Source of the DNA: a virus
Taxonomy: Duplodnaviria > Heunggongvirae > Uroviricota > Caudoviricetes
Direction: 5' to 3' (one strand)
Virus record (IMG/VR): IMGVR_UViG_2522572021_000009
Length of the DNA: 47,236 nt
This document shows, in pieces, positions 39,001-45,000 of this stretch; position 1 is the first letter of the stretch; each line of letters starts with the position of its first letter. Made by a program: the position numbers.

Positions 39001-42000
39001 GTCTGACCCAAGTTGAACTTGGCAAGCTTTCTGGCGTAACTGGGGTAACAATAGGATACTGGGAGAAAGATCTAAACGAACCAGGTAGCAAAGCTCTTAG
39101 TAAATTAGCCCTAGCACTAGGCACTACTGAGTCCTATCTCCTGTATGGAGTATCATCACCTGAATCATCCCTTGTGCAGAAAAATCCAGGTACCCAAATC
39201 CCATACCTTTCTTGGGGAGAAGCGATTTCTTTCCTAATATTAAAAGGAGAGAAAACTATGGGAAATGTCGACAGGATCACCACATTCTTTGATGTCAAGG
39301 AGGGAGATTTTGCCGTTTCAATGCCTGATGATACTATGCACAATCCATCAGGGTCCCCAAGCATTCCAGTTGGAGCCACAGTGATCATGAGGCCTGGCGA
39401 AAAATATAAAAATGGTAGCATCGTCGCAGTAATAGTCCCAGATCCACTCACAAACGAACCATCCATGACTATAAAAAAATTAGTTATTGATGGAAAGCTC
39501 GTGTACTTAGCCCCCCTTAACCCACGCTATCAATCATCCTTACTTACACCGGAATGTAACATCGTTGCTGTAGCAAAAGGTGTTCAGTTCAGCCTCTAGC
39601 TCCCGCTTTGCCCTGTAATCAGAGGTCGGCTTTGTCGGCCTTTTATCTTAAAAATATTTATATTCAACTTGACAGCAAAACTAAATATTCTTATATTCAT
39701 TGCAACCCACCCCGCTTCACAGAATGCAGGGCAATACTTCGAGTTACCCGGCAGTGGTCAGGGGTTAAGTAGCCAGCCCGAGGCGTATGAACATGACGGC
39801 GGGAACACTTTGTATAACAGCGCAGCAGGTTTTTAGTTCCGCGACCCGGCGTTAAGGGGGAATGAGGTCAACATGGATACGCTCAATCTTGGCAACAACG
39901 AATCTCTGGTATGCGGCGTGTTTCCCAACCAGGACGGTACGTTCACCGCGATGACGTATACCAAAAGCAAAACGTTTAAAACTGAAGCTGGCGCGCGTCG
40001 CTGGTTAGCCAGAAACACTGACTGATGAGGTTGACGATGGAATTTAAAGATTTACCTCCTTCAATCCAGGAGATTGCAGCACACACACTTCGTCATCGTC
40101 TGAACGAACTTGAATTGGAATCGGTAACGAAAAAAGACACTGATAATATGGCTCGTAATGTGCGCGATGCGTTTACCGGATTGTATTTCTGTGCGTCTAT
40201 AAATAAACACGACTCAGAGAGTGTGGCAAATAAAATTGCAGAAACGACAGCGCAAAACATCAATACGAAACCAACGGAAGAAGAAATTGATCAGTTTGCT
40301 CATGATGCTGGTTTAAAAAACAAGAAAGAAAAATCGCCATATGCGGGGAACATGTTTGTTTATGACAATCTCATCAGAATTCGTGGCGAAATTCCGGCGG
40401 AATACCTGGCAAGAGTCCATCAGGCATTGCTTAAAAATTTGGAAACAGAATTATTTGATGGCAACACTAACGGTTTCTTCATGGTATCAGGCCTTGAGAA
40501 AGACTGGGATGCAGAAAAACGCTGGAATGTTGCTACATGGTTATTCAGTAACAGAGCCGCTGCACTGGAAGCTTCGGCATGTATTTGCGGCCTGTTCTTA
40601 ACAGACCACAAATATAATCTGGATGTGTACAGTTATATTTACGCTGAACACGGTCCACTCTGGATTGACTGGTAATTATAAGGAAACACCAGCAGGGCCG
40701 CGGCGACCAACAGAACGATTAAAATCAATAATGCCATTATAAAGGACATTATTTAATTTATCGTCGAATGCTGATTCTGTGAGCCTCAACTCTGAATGAG
40801 TTTTTAATAACCCTGATTGCCTGAGTTGATTTACCAGGCATTCAATCTGTTTTTCAATAAGCGGATTTCTTTTTTTGTTTGGCATTTTATCCTCCATTGA
40901 GGTTCTGGGTTAAAAATGGAGACCAACACGCTGTCACGTGTGGTCGTGCGCCGGACACGGATAAGAATCCGGTACTGACAGTTTACTGAAAGGATATTTC
41001 CCTGAAAAGTCAGGGCATAACGCGAAAGCGTACGGCGAAGCTCTTTCCCTTAGAAGGCTTGTCGTTAGATTTCTTCGAACGTGCGCTTCCGGTTGTGGCA
41101 CTCCGCGAAATGGCGCGGCGGTAAGTATGGCGGGGTTATTCCTTCCCCGTTGAGGACACCGGGTTGTCAGGTTGACCATACGCTTAAGTGACAACCCCGC
41201 TGCAACGCCCTCTGTTATCAATTTTCTGGTGACGTTTGGCGGTATCAGTTTTACTCCGTGACTGCTCTGCCGCCCTTTTTTAAAAGTGAATTTTGTGATG
41301 CGGTGAATGCGGCTCAGCGCACGCGGAACAGTTAAAACCAAAAACAGTGTTATGGGTGGATTCTCTGTATCCGGCGTTAATTGTTAACTGGTTAACGTCA
41401 CCTGGAGGCACCAGGCACCGCATCACAAAATTCATTGTTGAGGACGCGATAATGGAAAAGTTATCATGTAATGCCAGCACGTCTGAACTTCGTTTCGAAA
41501 TTGGCGTTATCACTGGAGACAAAACATTTATTGAAGACGCCATTAAGCAGAGAAAACTCGAGCAGGACCTGTTAAATGAAGTATGCATTCCTTCAATGCT
41601 GGCTCGTCTGGACCTGCTGCAAAAAGGATATAAACAATGAATACAACATTTGCACTCGTTCTGACAGTTTATCTTGTTTCCGGCGAATCTCTTGAGCTGG
41701 TGACTGGCTTATACGGTTCAATGAAAGAATGCATGGCTGCAGCAGCAGAACAAAAAATTCCCGGTAACTGTTATCCGGTAGATAAAACTACTCACACTAA
41801 TAATAACGAAATACCGGCAGGACTTTAAAACAGCACCGTAATTAATATCCGGTTTCATTTTTATATGCCAGCAATGGCAGGGATTTGTTCACCCTTAAAT
41901 CTGTAATGAGGTTAAAACAAAATGAGTAAAGTCTTTATTTGCGCCGCCATTCCGGACGAACAGGCAATAAAAGAAGAGGGCGCAGTTGCTGTAGCCACTG

Positions 42001-45000
42001 CCATTGAAGCCGGTGATGAACGCCGCGCCCGTGCCAAATTTACCTGGCAATTCCTGGAGCAATATCCTGCTGCTCAGGACTGCGCTTATAAATTTCTTGT
42101 CTGCGAAGATAAACCTGGCATGCCCCGCCCTGCTATCGACTCCTGGGATACCGAATATATGCAGGAAAACCGCTGGGATGAGGAATCCGCTTCCTTTATT
42201 CCGGTCGAACCAGAATCCGATCCTATTAACGTCAATTTTGACAAGCTGTCCCTTGAAGTACAGAACGCGGTCCTGGTTAAGTTCGGTACATGTGAAAACA
42301 TCACCGTTGATATGGCGATTGACGCGCAGGAATTACTGCAAGAAGACGTGGCTACCTTTGACGGACATATCGTTGAAGCACTGATGAAAACGCCTGAAAT
42401 TAACGCTATGTATCCGGAACGCAAACTGTTCGCTATCGGATGGGTTAAACACAAATGTAAGCCGGGTACCAAATGGCCCGAAATTCAGGCTGAATTACGT
42501 AACTGGAAAAAACGGCAGGACGCAGAGCGCAAAGAGACTGGAAAATACACGTCTGTTGTTGATCTTGCCCGCGCCAAAGCCAACCGACAGCACACTGAAA
42601 ACCCAGCAGAAAAAATCCCTCCTGTAACTGCCGCCATTCATCGCGAATACAAGCAGACATGGAAAACCCTGGACAGGGAGCTGGCCTACTATCTCTGGCC
42701 TGGTGATGCGGATGCCGGAAACATTGACGGCAGCATCCTTCGCTGGGCTAAAAATGAAGTTATCGCCAGAGATCGCGAAGACTGGAAGCGCATCTCCGCA
42801 TCAATGCGCAAACAACCTGATGCGCTTCGCTACAGCCGCCAGACTATTTTTGGCCTTGTCCGTGAACGTCCGATCGACATTCACAAAGACCCTGTGGCAC
42901 TGAACAAATACATTACTGAATACCTGACTACAAAGGGCGTGTTTGAAGATGAAGGAAGAAATCAGAGCGCAACTGATACTCTCTCGTCGCCAGTACCAGA
43001 AACTGATGCAGTGGAAACGGCAATTCCGGACAACGAAAAAACCGAATGCAAAGTGGAAGTCGAATCATCTGTAGAGCGTGAGGGGCCGTTCTACTTCCTC
43101 TTCAGCGACAAGGATGGCGAAAAATACGGTCGTGCAAACAAACTTTCTGGTCTGAATAAGGCGCTGGCTGCAGGGGCTACTGAAATCACGAAAGAAGAAT
43201 ATTTTGCCCGCAAAAACGGTACATACTCAGGTTCACAACAAAATACTGGTGCATCTGACACGATCGCACAACCGGAGCCGGTAAAAGTTACCGCTGACGA
43301 AGTAAACAAAATTATGCAGGCAGCCAATATCAGCCAGCCTGACGCCGATAAGTTGCTTGCTGTATCACGTGGTGAATTTGTTGCAGGGATTAGCGACCCG
43401 AATGATCCGAAATGGGTGAAGGAGATTGAAACCCGCGATTCAGTGAATCAGAACCAGCAAGAAACGGAACAGAACGACCAGAAAGCGGAACAAAACAGCC
43501 CAAATGCGTTACAAAACGAGCCAGAAACGAAACAATCCGAACCAGTAGTGCAACAGGAACCGGAAAAAGTCTGCACCGCCTGCGGTCAGAGCGGTGGCGG
43601 CAACTGCCCCGATTGTGGCGCTGTCATGGGCAACGCAACATACCAGGAAACATTCGATGAAGAGAATCAGGTTGAAGCTCAGGAGAATGATCCGGAGGAA
43701 ATGGAAGGCGCTGAACATCCACACAAGGAGAACACTGGCGGCAATCAGCATCACGCCAGCGATAGTGAAACTGGCGAGGCGGCAGATCCCTTAATTAAGG
43801 TGAATGGTCATCACAATCTCACATCCACCAGCAGAGCGGGGATTCATCTGATGATCGACATTGAAACCATGGGAAAAAATCCCAATGCCGCGATTATCTC
43901 AATAGGCGCAATATTTTTCGATCCACAAACCGGAGATATGGGACCGGAATTTAGCAAGACCATCGATCTGGATACTGCTGGCGGAGTCATTGATCGGGAC
44001 ACCATTAAATGGTGGCTTAAGCAATCACGCGAAGCGCAATCTGCCATTATGACCGATGAAATCCCGTTAGATGATGCACTGTTACAATTGCGGGAATTTA
44101 TCGACGAAAACTCCGGTGAATTTTTTGTTCAGGTCTGGGGAAATGGAGCCAACTTCGACAACACGATTTTGCGCCGTTCATACGAACGGCAGGGGATCCC
44201 CTGCCCCTGGCACTACCACAACGATCGCGATGTACGCACAATCGTTGAGCTAGGGAAAGCCATAGACTTCGATGCCAGAACAGCTATCCCATTCGAAGGT
44301 GAGCGCCACAATGCACTTGATGACGCCCGTTACCAGGCAAAATACGTTTCAGCTATCTGGCAAAAACTGATCCCGAGTCAGGCTGATTTTTAATGTTCAA
44401 CCATCGCCGGTTGTGACTGGTATTCTGCAACCGGCCCTCATCTGATGTAAGAGATAAAAGCGATGAGCGAAGTAATCATGATTGTCTCTCCCGGTAAATG
44501 GGTATCCGAAGAGCAGTTAATTGCGCTGAAAGGAATAAAAAAAGGTACGTTAAAAAAGGCCCGGGAAAAATCGTTTATGGAAGGAAGGGAATATAAGCAT
44601 GTCGCTCATGACGGTATGCCATGGGATAACAGTCCATGCTTTTACAACCTGGAAGAAATTGATCGCTGGATTGAGCGCCAGGCATCTGCAAGACCAAGAC
44701 GTCATCTTGCTTGACTAAAAGCAACACGAACCAATGAGAGAAGCTGAAATGAAATATCCGACAGGCGTGGAAAACCATGGAGGGAAATTACGTATCTGGT
44801 TTGTTTATAAAGGTGTAAGAGTCCGGGAAAATCTTGGGGTTCCTGACACAGCAAAAAACAGGCGCATTGCAGGTGAGCTACGCGCCTCTGTTTGTTACGC
44901 AATAAAAACTGGCGCTTTCGACTATGCAAAACAGTTTCCCGCCTCACACAATCTGGAAAAATTTGGTGAGGCCCGACAAGATTTAACCATAAAAGAACTG

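What the first reader, a model, noticed from the sequence alone, without database searches (positions are those of the whole stretch)
41922..44393. RecE-like scaffold carrying a DnaQ-type 3'-5' exonuclease domain, with no annealase partner
The 823-aa protein shares a central segment with RecE as I recall it, but its C-terminal domain has DEDDh motifs instead of RecE's PD-(D/E)xK 5'-3' nuclease. No RecT/Redbeta-like gene follows; the next genes are xis and int. That looks like a domain swap producing a different exonuclease polarity in the recombination slot of the prophage.
Basis: partly seen in the sequence, partly recalled or inferred. Interest (0 to 1): 0.55.

Follow-up and report, generated by a model that had tools for sequence, protein, structure and literature searches.

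The report
RecE-like scaffold with 3'-5' exonuclease
This prophage gene encodes a RecE-type carrier protein whose usual 5'-3' nuclease end has been replaced by a DnaQ/DexA-type 3'-5' exonuclease and which has no annealing partner; it is real and intact, but it is a very common, already catalogued E. coli phage gene whose biological role has never been tested.

Summary
ORF 41922-44393 (+) encodes 823 aa. Residues 642-813 are a PF16473 DEDDh exonuclease domain (E=3e-67; D646, E648, D746, H796, D801). Residues about 458-626 are roughly 75-80% identical to K-12 RecE 433-591 and stop exactly where RecE's PD-(D/E)xK nuclease begins. Residues 1-256 equal the K-12 Qin pseudogene YdfE. xis and int follow directly, and no annealase is detectable in the prophage.

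Relatives show a modular scaffold. All four combinations of two N-termini with the two nucleases exist. RecT follows only the PD-(D/E)xK forms. Some relatives carry a probable Rad52-like annealase instead.

The gene is under purifying selection. The DEDDh form occurs in 4044 of 5426 complete E. coli genomes, against 1730 for RecE's nuclease. Plaque-forming phage Tritos carries it at 85% identity. A 2025 Genome Research paper lists Tritos as a nuclease-only, annealase-less, Chi-rich Rec-module type, and this window has 15 Chi sites against 2.25 expected.

So it is already known as an entity. 3'-5' DNA exonuclease activity is strongly inferred; its role, probably DNA-end processing in a phage that relies on host RecBCD/RecA, is untested.

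The parts
41922..44393 (+). Whole gene: 823-aa modular exonuclease (RefSeq 'exonuclease', PHROG 2082)
   Evidence: ORF list. PHROG 2082 matches 1-823 of 823. 100% identical to WP_025404340.1. dN/dS is 0.14-0.32 in all regions.
41922..42689 (+). aa 1-256: YdfE-type N-terminal module, with two confidently folded domains (alpha/beta 1-100, helical 105-206)
42690..43292 (+). aa 257-457: mid scaffold, with a helical domain (245-340) and a small beta-beta-alpha-beta-alpha mini-domain (388-432, 'GPFY...GRANK...EEYxARKNG'), separated by disordered linkers
   Evidence: AF2 model. Conserved across relatives that carry different C-termini. Weakly similar to RecE 294-353.
43293..43799 (+). aa 458-626: acidic central segment shared with Rac RecE (RecE 433-591). 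Includes a CxxC...CxxC zinc-ribbon-like motif, C551/C554/C562/C565 (nt 43572-43616)
   Evidence: BLASTP against K-12 RecE. NF007259 partial match. Cys positions. dN/dS 0.32.
43845..44360 (+). aa 642-813: DEDDh 3'-5' exonuclease domain (PF16473, DexA/Rv2179c family). Catalytic residues: D646 (43857-43859), E648 (43863-43865), D746 (44157-44159), H796 (44307-44309), D801 (44322-44324)
   Evidence: Pfam E=3e-67. Alignment with T4 DexA. PDB sequence hit to 8kel, the same length as T4 DexA and probably DexA, at E=6e-8, with no Rv2179c hit. Catalytic residues conserved in 34-35 of 35 variants.
44463..44714 (+). Excisionase, the gene immediately downstream (no annealase in between)
   Evidence: PF06806 E=1.6e-31. 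PGAP 'excisionase family protein'.
44734..46029 (+). Tyrosine integrase. The prophage ends next to rspB, the Qin attachment site
   Evidence: PF00589 and PF12167. rspB flank as in K-12 Qin.
41224..41828 (+). Upstream genes of the same early-left operon: DicF sRNA (41224-41275), dicB (41452-41640), ydfD-like DUF1482 (41637-41828)
   Evidence: Rfam RF00039, 76.7 bits. Pfam DicB and DUF1482. Same order in phage Tritos and K-12 Qin.
38955..39599 (+). CI/LexA-type repressor at the head of the leftward early region. The exonuclease lies about 2.3 kb downstream on the same strand
   Evidence: HTH_3 plus Peptidase_S24. PGAP 'LexA family protein'.
22972..31528 (-). Cluster of 7 Chi sites (GCTGGTGG) on the late-gene strand, just inside the presumed right cos end. 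This is context for a prophage without its own recombinase or anti-RecBCD function
   Evidence: 15 Chi sites in the window against 2.25 expected, with 0 of 100 shuffles reaching 15; 12 are on the - strand. The pattern is described for Tritos/LLS-type phages in PMC12315714.

Best explanation
The gene encodes a modular early-left-operon protein of a Qin/Tritos-type lambdoid prophage. A RecE-family scaffold carries a catalytically intact DEDDh exonuclease of the T4 DexA / PF16473 family at its C-terminus. The scaffold consists of a YdfE-type N-terminal module, a mid module, and an acidic zinc-ribbon segment shared with Rac RecE.

Most likely it is made only after prophage induction or infection, because it lies downstream of the cI-controlled leftward operon. 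It most likely removes nucleotides from DNA 3' ends in a Mg2+-dependent way.

It is not half of an exonuclease/annealase pair. RecT binds RecE's nuclease domain (established knowledge), and that domain is the part that has been replaced. The phage has no detectable annealase, SSB or anti-RecBCD gene, and it is Chi-rich in the active orientation.

The enzyme therefore probably serves as a stand-alone DNA-end-processing nuclease, for example trimming 3' tails, in a phage whose recombination-dependent growth is delegated to host RecBCD/RecA.

Shown here: architecture, catalytic residues, purifying selection, the systematic absence of an annealase, and Chi enrichment. Inferred: 3'-5' polarity, DNA as substrate, timing of expression, and the physiological role.
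For: - Domain assignment and catalytic residues.
- Closer to a DNA exonuclease than to an RNA one: the PDB match is to 8kel, probably T4 DexA, at E=6e-8, with no Rv2179c hit at E<=10.
- The 55%-identical stand-alone homologue in phage epsilon34 (gp34) sits between SSB and Abc2, next to Erf, inside a canonical recombination module (PMC12315714).
- The same scaffold carries RecE's PD-(D/E)xK nuclease followed by RecT (L032, L012/L064), or a probable Rad52-like annealase followed by Gp157 (L071/L072). This ties the scaffold to recombination functions.
- No annealase was found next to about 50 DEDDh loci, across at least four xis/int module types, nor in the whole window.
- dN/dS is 0.14-0.32, and catalytic residues are conserved in 34-35 of 35 variants.
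- Plaque-forming phages Tritos, HannyBb and Evi carry it. Tritos has the same gene order.
- PMC12315714 lists Tritos as a nuclease-only type with no SAP and no anti-RecBCD function, and as Chi-rich.
- The window has 15 Chi sites against 2.25 expected. Twelve are on the late-gene strand, and seven lie near the right cos end.
Against: - No biochemical or genetic data exist for this protein.
- The Pfam family is named for an exoribonuclease (Rv2179c), so RNA cannot be excluded.
- DnaQ-like 3'-5' DNases of E. coli usually inhibit rather than promote recombination, as noted in PMC12315714. A xonA mutation is reported to enhance RecET assembly (title of PMC13048471; the paper was not read).
- PMC12315714 itself regards one-gene Rec modules as 'somewhat suspect'. 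It also notes that sporadic DnaQ-type genes near int may not be recombination genes.
- Any specific mechanistic link to RecBCD is my inference.
- The scaffold's fold gave no informative match.
Confidence: 0.5

Rival explanations
1. It is a prophage-encoded anti-phage defence or superinfection-exclusion nuclease of the HREX/EcD type. It would be a DexA-like exonuclease that spares host DNA and degrades modified (5hmC) DNA of incoming T-even phages.
For: - Kang et al. 2025 (PMC12153337) report that an E. coli DexA homologue, EcD, digests T4 DNA and protects cells.
- The domain here is a DexA homologue.
- The gene is present in 75% of complete E. coli genomes, with up to 7 copies.
- The same prophage carries other defence-like cargo, a PD-T4-6/Stk2-like kinase.
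Against: - The two residues reported to recognise 5hmC are not conserved. DexA W152 corresponds to H766 here (Y, H or T in variants). DexA D169 corresponds to A780 (A, T or V in variants).
- D90, which EcD lacks, is retained here as D718.
- The gene lies deep in the repressor-controlled early-left operon, with no promoter-like site of its own.
- PADLOC gives only a generic CRISPR-associated DEDDh hit at E=1.6e-5.
- EcD is a stand-alone domain that starts at 'MIDTET'. I could not retrieve its sequence for comparison.
Confidence: 0.15
2. It is a 3'-5' exoribonuclease, like the Pfam family founder Rv2179c. It would act on phage or host RNA, for example by processing or turning over early-operon transcripts such as the adjacent DicF precursor.
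For: - PF16473 is named for an exoribonuclease, and many NCBI records call this protein '3'-5' exoribonuclease'.
- DicF sRNA is encoded 650 nt upstream in the same operon.
Against: - The sequence is detectably similar to a solved chain that is probably the DNA exonuclease T4 DexA, but not to Rv2179c.
- The closest stand-alone homologues sit in DNA recombination modules.
- The same scaffold otherwise carries DNA nucleases or a probable annealase.
- The NCBI names are annotation transfers, not tests.
Confidence: 0.1
3. It is a host-takeover or counter-defence nuclease used during lytic growth. It could scavenge host DNA as T4 DexA does, or destroy 3'-ended ssDNA species such as recombination intermediates or retron msDNA. 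Recombination in the phage's favour would not be its function.
For: - DexA has a documented host-DNA scavenging role (PMC12153337).
- DnaQ-like DNases usually inhibit recombination (PMC12315714).
- The gene sits near int, among accessory genes.
Against: - There is no evidence that temperate lambdoid phages degrade host DNA.
- The modular exchange with RecE nuclease/RecT and with a probable annealase points to recombination functions.
- Nothing links the gene to retrons.
Confidence: 0.1
4. It is a decaying, non-functional mosaic left by prophage recombination.
For: - K-12's copy (ydfE) is a truncated pseudogene.
- Several structural genes of this prophage are annotated as frameshifted.
Against: - The 823-codon ORF is intact.
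- dN/dS is 0.14-0.32 across all modules, and catalytic residues are conserved.
- Full-length copies occur in thousands of genomes and in plaque-forming phages.
Confidence: 0.03

Closest known systems
RecE (exonuclease VIII) of the Rac prophage, E. coli K-12
   Same: - Large multi-module early-left-operon protein lying just upstream of xis/int.
- aa 458-626 are homologous to RecE 433-591, including the zinc-ribbon motif.
- The nuclease sits at the C-terminus, after the same junction.
- Natural hybrids link the two proteins (P0124, L011, L032).
   Different: - No PD-(D/E)xK domain and no PF06630 N-terminus.
- It scores 285 bits against a cut-off of 1269 for the RecE equivalog model.
- No recT follows it.
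- The predicted polarity is opposite.
Phage Tritos TRITO_27, the 'Tritos-type' nuclease-only Rec module (PMC12315714)
   Same: - 85.5% identical over the full length.
- Identical gene order: cI ... DicF-dicB-ydfD-exo-xis-int.
- No SAP and no anti-RecBCD function, and Chi-rich.
   Different: Only allelic divergence and a different host-genome context. The paper catalogues the type but does not analyse the protein's architecture or function.
T4 DexA (exonuclease A)
   Same: - DEDDh catalytic residues align.
- The only solved structure detectable by sequence is 8kel, a 227-aa 'Exodeoxyribonuclease' that is probably DexA, at E=6e-8.
- DexA is a 3'-5' DNA exonuclease.
   Different: - About 29% identity.
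- DexA is a stand-alone 227-aa protein with extra loops.
- The 5hmC-recognition residues W152 and D169 are not conserved here.
Stand-alone lambdoid DnaQ-like nucleases (epsilon34 gp34, mEp460_026, LLS gene 34, ST64B)
   Same: - 55-58% identical to aa 642-822.
- Same operon.
- mEp460_026 also lies immediately before the excisionase-like gene and int.
   Different: - They lack the 640-aa scaffold.
- epsilon34 gp34 is embedded among Erf, SSB and Abc2, so it does have an annealase partner.
EcD / HREX defence exonuclease (PMC12153337)
   Same: It is an E. coli-encoded DexA-family DEDDh exonuclease.
   Different: - EcD is a stand-alone domain.
- The specificity and oligomerisation residues differ.
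Rv2179c of M. tuberculosis (founder of PF16473)
   Same: Same Pfam family.
   Different: - No pairwise similarity is detectable in the PDB sequence search at E<=10.
- Rv2179c is an exoribonuclease (my own knowledge; I did not read a paper on this).

Membership tests
DEDDh (DnaQ-like) 3'-5' exonucleases, PF16473 DexA/Rv2179c family | Full-length domain match above the Pfam gathering score | tested here: met
   226.1 bits against a cut-off of 27, covering profile positions 2-177 of 177 at aa 642-813
DEDDh (DnaQ-like) 3'-5' exonucleases, PF16473 DexA/Rv2179c family | Exo I (DxE), Exo II (D) and Exo III (Hx4D) catalytic residues | tested here: met
   D646/E648, D746 and H796/D801 align with T4 DexA D7/E9, the Exo II D, and H186/D191. 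They are conserved in 34-35 of 35 variants.
DEDDh (DnaQ-like) 3'-5' exonucleases, PF16473 DexA/Rv2179c family | Metal-dependent 3'-5' exonuclease activity, and the substrate (DNA or RNA) | not testable with these tools
   Needs an enzyme assay. The sequence is closer to the solved chain 8kel, probably DexA (a DNase), than to Rv2179c.
RecE / exodeoxyribonuclease VIII (NCBIfam NF007259 equivalog) | Whole-protein score above the curated cut-off | tested here: not met
   285 bits against a cut-off of 1269. Only model positions 271-602 are matched.
RecE / exodeoxyribonuclease VIII (NCBIfam NF007259 equivalog) | C-terminal PD-(D/E)xK nuclease domain (PF12684-type) | tested here: not met
   Absent here. 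Present in K-12 RecE under the same test. The BLASTP alignment breaks at the domain boundary.
RecE / exodeoxyribonuclease VIII (NCBIfam NF007259 equivalog) | N-terminal Exonuc_VIII domain (PF06630) | tested here: not met
   No hit here. RecE gives E=6e-98.
RecE / exodeoxyribonuclease VIII (NCBIfam NF007259 equivalog) | Central segment homologous to RecE about 433-591 | tested here: met
   BLASTP E=5e-64, with a near-collinear, highly identical block at aa 458-626
RecE / exodeoxyribonuclease VIII (NCBIfam NF007259 equivalog) | Partner annealase gene (recT) immediately downstream | tested here: not met
   xis starts 70 nt after the stop codon. No RecT is found in the window or in about 50 related DEDDh loci.
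Tritos-type nuclease-only Rec module of lambdoid phages (PMC12315714) | Nuclease homologous to that of phage Tritos, in the same operon position | tested here: met
   85.5% identity over 100% of the length, with the same gene order
Tritos-type nuclease-only Rec module of lambdoid phages (PMC12315714) | No SAP, SSB or anti-RecBCD gene | tested here: met
   None is recognised by PGAP, Pfam or PHROGs. Unrecognised families cannot be excluded; the 216-aa protein at 40025-40675 remains unknown.
Tritos-type nuclease-only Rec module of lambdoid phages (PMC12315714) | Many Chi sites on the active (late-gene) strand, clustered toward the right end | tested here: met
   There are 12 Chi sites on the - strand and 3 on the + strand, against 2.25 expected in total. 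Seven of the 12 lie at 22.9-31.6 kb, next to the presumed cos site.
HREX / EcD 5hmC-specific defence exonucleases (PMC12153337) | Conserved 5hmC-recognition residues (DexA W152 and D169) | tested here: not met
   H766 and A780 here. Variants have Y, H or T and A, T or V.
HREX / EcD 5hmC-specific defence exonucleases (PMC12153337) | Loss of the tetramer-forming aspartate (DexA D90; Ala in EcD) | tested here: not met
   D718 is retained in 35 of 35 variants.
HREX / EcD 5hmC-specific defence exonucleases (PMC12153337) | Protection against T4, and selective digestion of modified DNA | not testable with these tools
   Needs plaque and nuclease assays.

The most novel reading that the evidence does not exclude
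The RecE-family scaffold, whose function in RecE itself has been unknown for decades, is an effector-agnostic delivery module. It would bring whichever C-terminal DNA-end enzyme it carries to the same target, such as DNA ends or a host replisome or recombination factor. The enzyme can be a 5'-3' exonuclease, a 3'-5' exonuclease or a Rad52-like annealase. On this reading the DEDDh version is a previously unrecognised way for a temperate phage to cooperate with host RecBCD-Chi-RecA. It could, for example, convert 3'-tailed ends into RecBCD entry sites, rather than replacing RecBCD with an exonuclease/annealase pair.
Probability: 0.2. Interest if true: 0.6.

Novelty: already known. Interest (0 to 1): 0.3.

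Why it matters
This is the majority form of the 'RecE-like' gene in E. coli prophages: 75% of complete genomes carry it, against 32% for RecE's own nuclease domain. No activity or phenotype has ever been measured for it.

It provides natural domain-swap controls for asking what RecE's long N-terminal region does. It is also a handle on how recombinase-less, Chi-rich lambdoid phages, including many EHEC prophages, manage recombination-dependent growth.

As a discovery it is modest. The sequence family, its domains and the annealase-less arrangement are already in databases and in a 2025 paper.

Tried and rejected
1. **Retrieving EcD for direct comparison failed.** EcD is HAK9828821.1, the defence exonuclease of PMC12153337. 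Only its primer sequences were available. The 20-mer alone gave one chance hit. No representative protein starts with 'MIDTET'.

2. **The genome-contig scan with the central segment returned only 4 loci**. The segment is confined to close relatives of E. coli.

3. **The full-length word-indexed protein search returned only near-identical E. coli proteins**. It was useless for diversity. The 50%-representative search was what revealed the modular variants.

6. **Several literature searches found nothing or were wasted.** Searches for Rv2179c with prophage, and for ydfE/Qin with exonuclease, found nothing. One search was wasted because 'RecE' matched 'receptor'.

7. **Two readings were considered and rejected.**
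   - The protein is not a true RecE family member, because its defining features fail.
   - It is not a pseudogene, because of the selection analysis and its presence in viable phages.

Full report
**Source of the window**

The window is E. coli O145:H28 RM12581 (NZ_CP007136.1, 1981733-2028968). It holds a lambdoid prophage integrated next to rspB, the site of the K-12 cryptic prophage Qin.

**Observation**

ORF 41922-44393 (+) encodes 823 aa.

- Pfam places a complete PF16473 'Rv2179c-like' 3'-5' exonuclease domain at aa 642-813 (E=3e-67).
- Alignment with T4 DexA and a stand-alone lambdoid homologue shows all five DEDDh residues: D646, E648, D746, H796 and D801.
- K-12 RecE, run through the same test, gives PF06630 at its N-terminus and a PD-(D/E)xK domain (PF12684) at its C-terminus. 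The window protein has neither.
- BLASTP against RecE gives E=5e-64. A near-collinear, highly identical block runs from aa 458-626 to RecE 433-591. It includes a CxxC...CxxC motif (C551, C554, C562, C565).
- Similarity stops abruptly at '...ADPxI', exactly where RecE's nuclease domain begins.
- The NCBIfam RecE equivalog model matches only this middle part, at 285 bits against a cut-off of 1269.
- Residues 1-256 are 84% identical to the K-12 pseudogene ydfE, which is cut off by an insertion sequence.
- Seventy nucleotides after the stop codon comes xis, then int.
- No RecT, Redbeta, Erf, Rad52, SSB or Gam/Abc2 gene is recognisable anywhere in the prophage by PGAP, Pfam or PHROGs.

**Anatomy**

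An AlphaFold2 model of aa 1-460, built with 15 diverse homologues, has a mean pLDDT of 76. It shows four folded units joined by disordered linkers:

| Unit | Residues | Type |
|---|---|---|
| 1 | 1-100 | alpha/beta domain |
| 2 | 105-206 | helical domain |
| 3 | 245-340 | helical domain |
| 4 | 388-432 | small beta-beta-alpha-beta-alpha unit with the conserved 'GPFY...GRANK...EEYxARKNG' signature |

**A modular family**

An exhaustive search of 1.8 billion representative proteins, followed by sequence inspection, Pfam and alignment, shows that the scaffold occurs with interchangeable ends.

- N-termini are either YdfE-type or RecE-type (PF06630).
- C-termini are one of four kinds:
  - DEDDh (this protein; also P0123, P0124, P0127, P0135 and others).
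  - PD-(D/E)xK (P0138, P0157).
  - A roughly 280-aa module in P0134, P0142, P0145, P0172 and P0205.
  - A short unknown tail (P0130, P0154).

P0124 is essentially RecE with its nuclease replaced by the DEDDh domain.

I mapped domain probes onto 84 related loci.

- About 50 complete loci combine the YdfE-type N-terminus with DEDDh. One locus (L011) combines the RecE-type N-terminus with DEDDh.
- None of these has a RecT hit.
- In all of them the next genes are an excisionase and an integrase, of at least four unrelated types.
- L032 has the YdfE-type N-terminus and a C-terminus 100% identical to RecE's nuclease. It is followed by RecT (100% identical to K-12 RecT).
- L012 and L064 have a more distant PD-(D/E)xK C-terminus. 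They are followed by a RecT-family protein (PF03837, E=3e-44).

The presence of an annealase therefore tracks the nuclease type, not the scaffold.

The roughly 280-aa C-terminal module of L071/L072 is followed by a Sipho_Gp157 gene. It gives a sub-threshold Rad52_Rad22 hit (E=0.004). Its AF2 model finds named Rad52, ERF and SSAP proteins in the viral structure library, with E values from 7e-7 to 3e-2. The PDB searches were uninformative. I therefore call it a probable, unproven annealase.

**Is the gene functional and common?**

I compared 35 distinct DEDDh-type alleles.

| Region | dN/dS |
|---|---|
| N-terminal module | 0.14 |
| Mid region | 0.23 |
| Central segment | 0.32 |
| DEDDh domain | 0.15 |

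The catalytic residues are kept in 34-35 of the 35 alleles.

- The DEDDh-domain DNA is found in 4044 of 5426 complete E. coli genomes, at 8099 places and up to seven per genome.
- RecE's nuclease domain is found in 1730 genomes, always with recT.
- PHROG 2082 matches the protein end to end.
- The protein collection's precomputed Pfam annotation lists PF27430, PF16473 and PF27432 for it.
- Plaque-forming phages Tritos, HannyBb, Evi and mEp460_ev081 encode it at 84-90% identity.
- Tritos has the same order: cI ... DicF-dicB-ydfD-exo-xis-int.

**What is known**

*Lambdoid Rec modules (Genome Research 2025, PMC12315714).* This paper surveyed the Rec modules of lambdoid phages.

- It reports DnaQ-like 3'-5' nucleases as one of four nuclease types.
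- It notes that such enzymes 'curiously, usually inhibit homologous recombination'.
- It remarks that sporadic DnaQ-type genes lie 'very near int'.
- Its Table 1 lists a 'Tritos' type of four phages. This type has a nuclease only, with no SAP, no SSB and no anti-RecBCD function. It has 7-21 top-strand Chi sites.
- It proposes that phages without their own recombination system, or without an anti-RecBCD function, use host RecBCD through Chi.

The window fits this description. It holds 15 Chi octamers against 2.25 expected, and 0 of 100 shuffles reach 15. Twelve are on the late-gene strand, which is the active orientation for entry from the right cos end. Seven lie within about 9 kb of the presumed cos site, between the lysis and terminase genes.

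*Substrate.* The only solved structure similar in sequence is 8kel, a 227-aa 'Exodeoxyribonuclease' that has the same length as T4 DexA and is probably DexA (E=6e-8). No Rv2179c entry appears at E<=10. The 55%-identical stand-alone homologue of phage epsilon34 lies between the SSB and Abc2 genes, next to Erf. This context argues for a role on DNA and in recombination.

*Defence (NAR 2025, PMC12153337).* This paper reports that an E. coli DexA homologue, EcD, is a 5hmC-specific anti-T4 exonuclease. In the window protein the two residues implicated in 5hmC recognition are H766 and A780 instead of W and D. The aspartate that EcD lacks is retained. PADLOC gives only a generic DEDDh hit. No promoter-like site precedes the gene. 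A defence role is therefore possible but less likely.

**Conclusion**

- It is not a member of the RecE family in the strict sense. It lacks the nuclease domain, the N-terminal domain, the score cut-off and the RecT partner. It shares RecE's scaffold logic and its central segment.
- It is a member of the DEDDh PF16473/DexA family.
- The most likely mechanism is a Mg2+-dependent 3'-5' DNA exonuclease, delivered by a RecE-type scaffold during lytic development. It would act without an annealase in a phage that leaves strand exchange to host RecBCD/RecA.
- The enzymatic class is strongly inferred. The physiological role is conjecture.
- The gene is ubiquitous, annotated, and already catalogued as the Tritos-type Rec module. 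Novelty is therefore low.
- Its main value is as an uncharacterised majority variant, and as a natural experiment on the function of RecE's enigmatic N-terminal region.

Noticed in passing
L071:6569-8911 and L072:6572-8920 (IMG/VR prophage contigs); proteins P0134, P0142, P0145, P0172, P0205: The same YdfE-type scaffold carries a roughly 280-aa C-terminal module that looks like a Rad52/ERF-superfamily annealase and is followed by a Sipho_Gp157 gene. The support is a sub-threshold Pfam Rad52_Rad22 hit and BFVD Foldseek hits to named SSAPs. PHROGs label this family 'exonuclease', probably by annotation transfer.
   Followed up: partly
window 16422-43832: There are 15 Chi octamers against 2.25 expected. 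Twelve are on the - (late-gene) strand and seven cluster at 22.9-31.6 kb next to the presumed cos site. This is the signature reported for lambdoid phages that lack anti-RecBCD or Rec modules.
   Followed up: partly
window 32995-34489 (+): A Ser/Thr kinase and an overlapping PP2C phosphatase lie on the opposite strand to their neighbours, in a low-GC island (0.36-0.37). The kinase matches the PADLOC defence kinases PD-T4-6, Stk2 and mad6 (E down to 1e-37). This is probably a defence or exclusion moron.
   Followed up: partly
window 41224-41275 (+): A DicF sRNA (Rfam 76.7 bits) lies upstream of dicB (41452-41640) and a ydfD-like DUF1482 gene (41637-41828). The order is the same as in K-12 Qin and phage Tritos.
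   Followed up: yes
window 40025-40675 (+): A 216-aa early-left protein (phrog_2151) has no Pfam domain. Its first 50-75 residues are shared with several other PHROGs, and relatives in other loci keep the N-terminus 'MRLTMEFKDLP' with different C-termini. This looks like another modular protein of unknown function. It is the only sizeable candidate for an unrecognised recombination or anti-RecBCD function.
   Followed up: partly
window 3-994, 3833-7308, 15173-19329: PGAP marks nleC (a T3SS effector), gpJ, the portal gene, the protease/capsid fusion and a head-tail gene as frameshifted. The prophage may be defective, or the assembly may carry homopolymer errors.
   Followed up: no
L011 (JAGZPX010000007.1, 'MAG: Veillonella parvula') and L012 (JAGTSE010000010.1, soil 'Proteobacteria bacterium' MAG): Both contigs carry E. 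coli-type prophage genes. In L011 the xis and int genes are 96-99% identical to the window's. The contigs are probably mis-binned or contaminant Escherichia sequence in these MAGs.
   Followed up: no
window 28499-29557 (-) and 32429-32584 (-): An orphan-looking Type II DNA methyltransferase (PADLOC MTase_II, E=9e-163) and a Hok/Gef toxin gene lie in the late-regulatory and nin-like region of the prophage.
   Followed up: no
window 41866-41879 (+): A weak terminator-like hairpin (5-bp stem followed by a T-rich tail) lies between the ydfD-like gene and the exonuclease start. No promoter-like site precedes the exonuclease.
   Followed up: no
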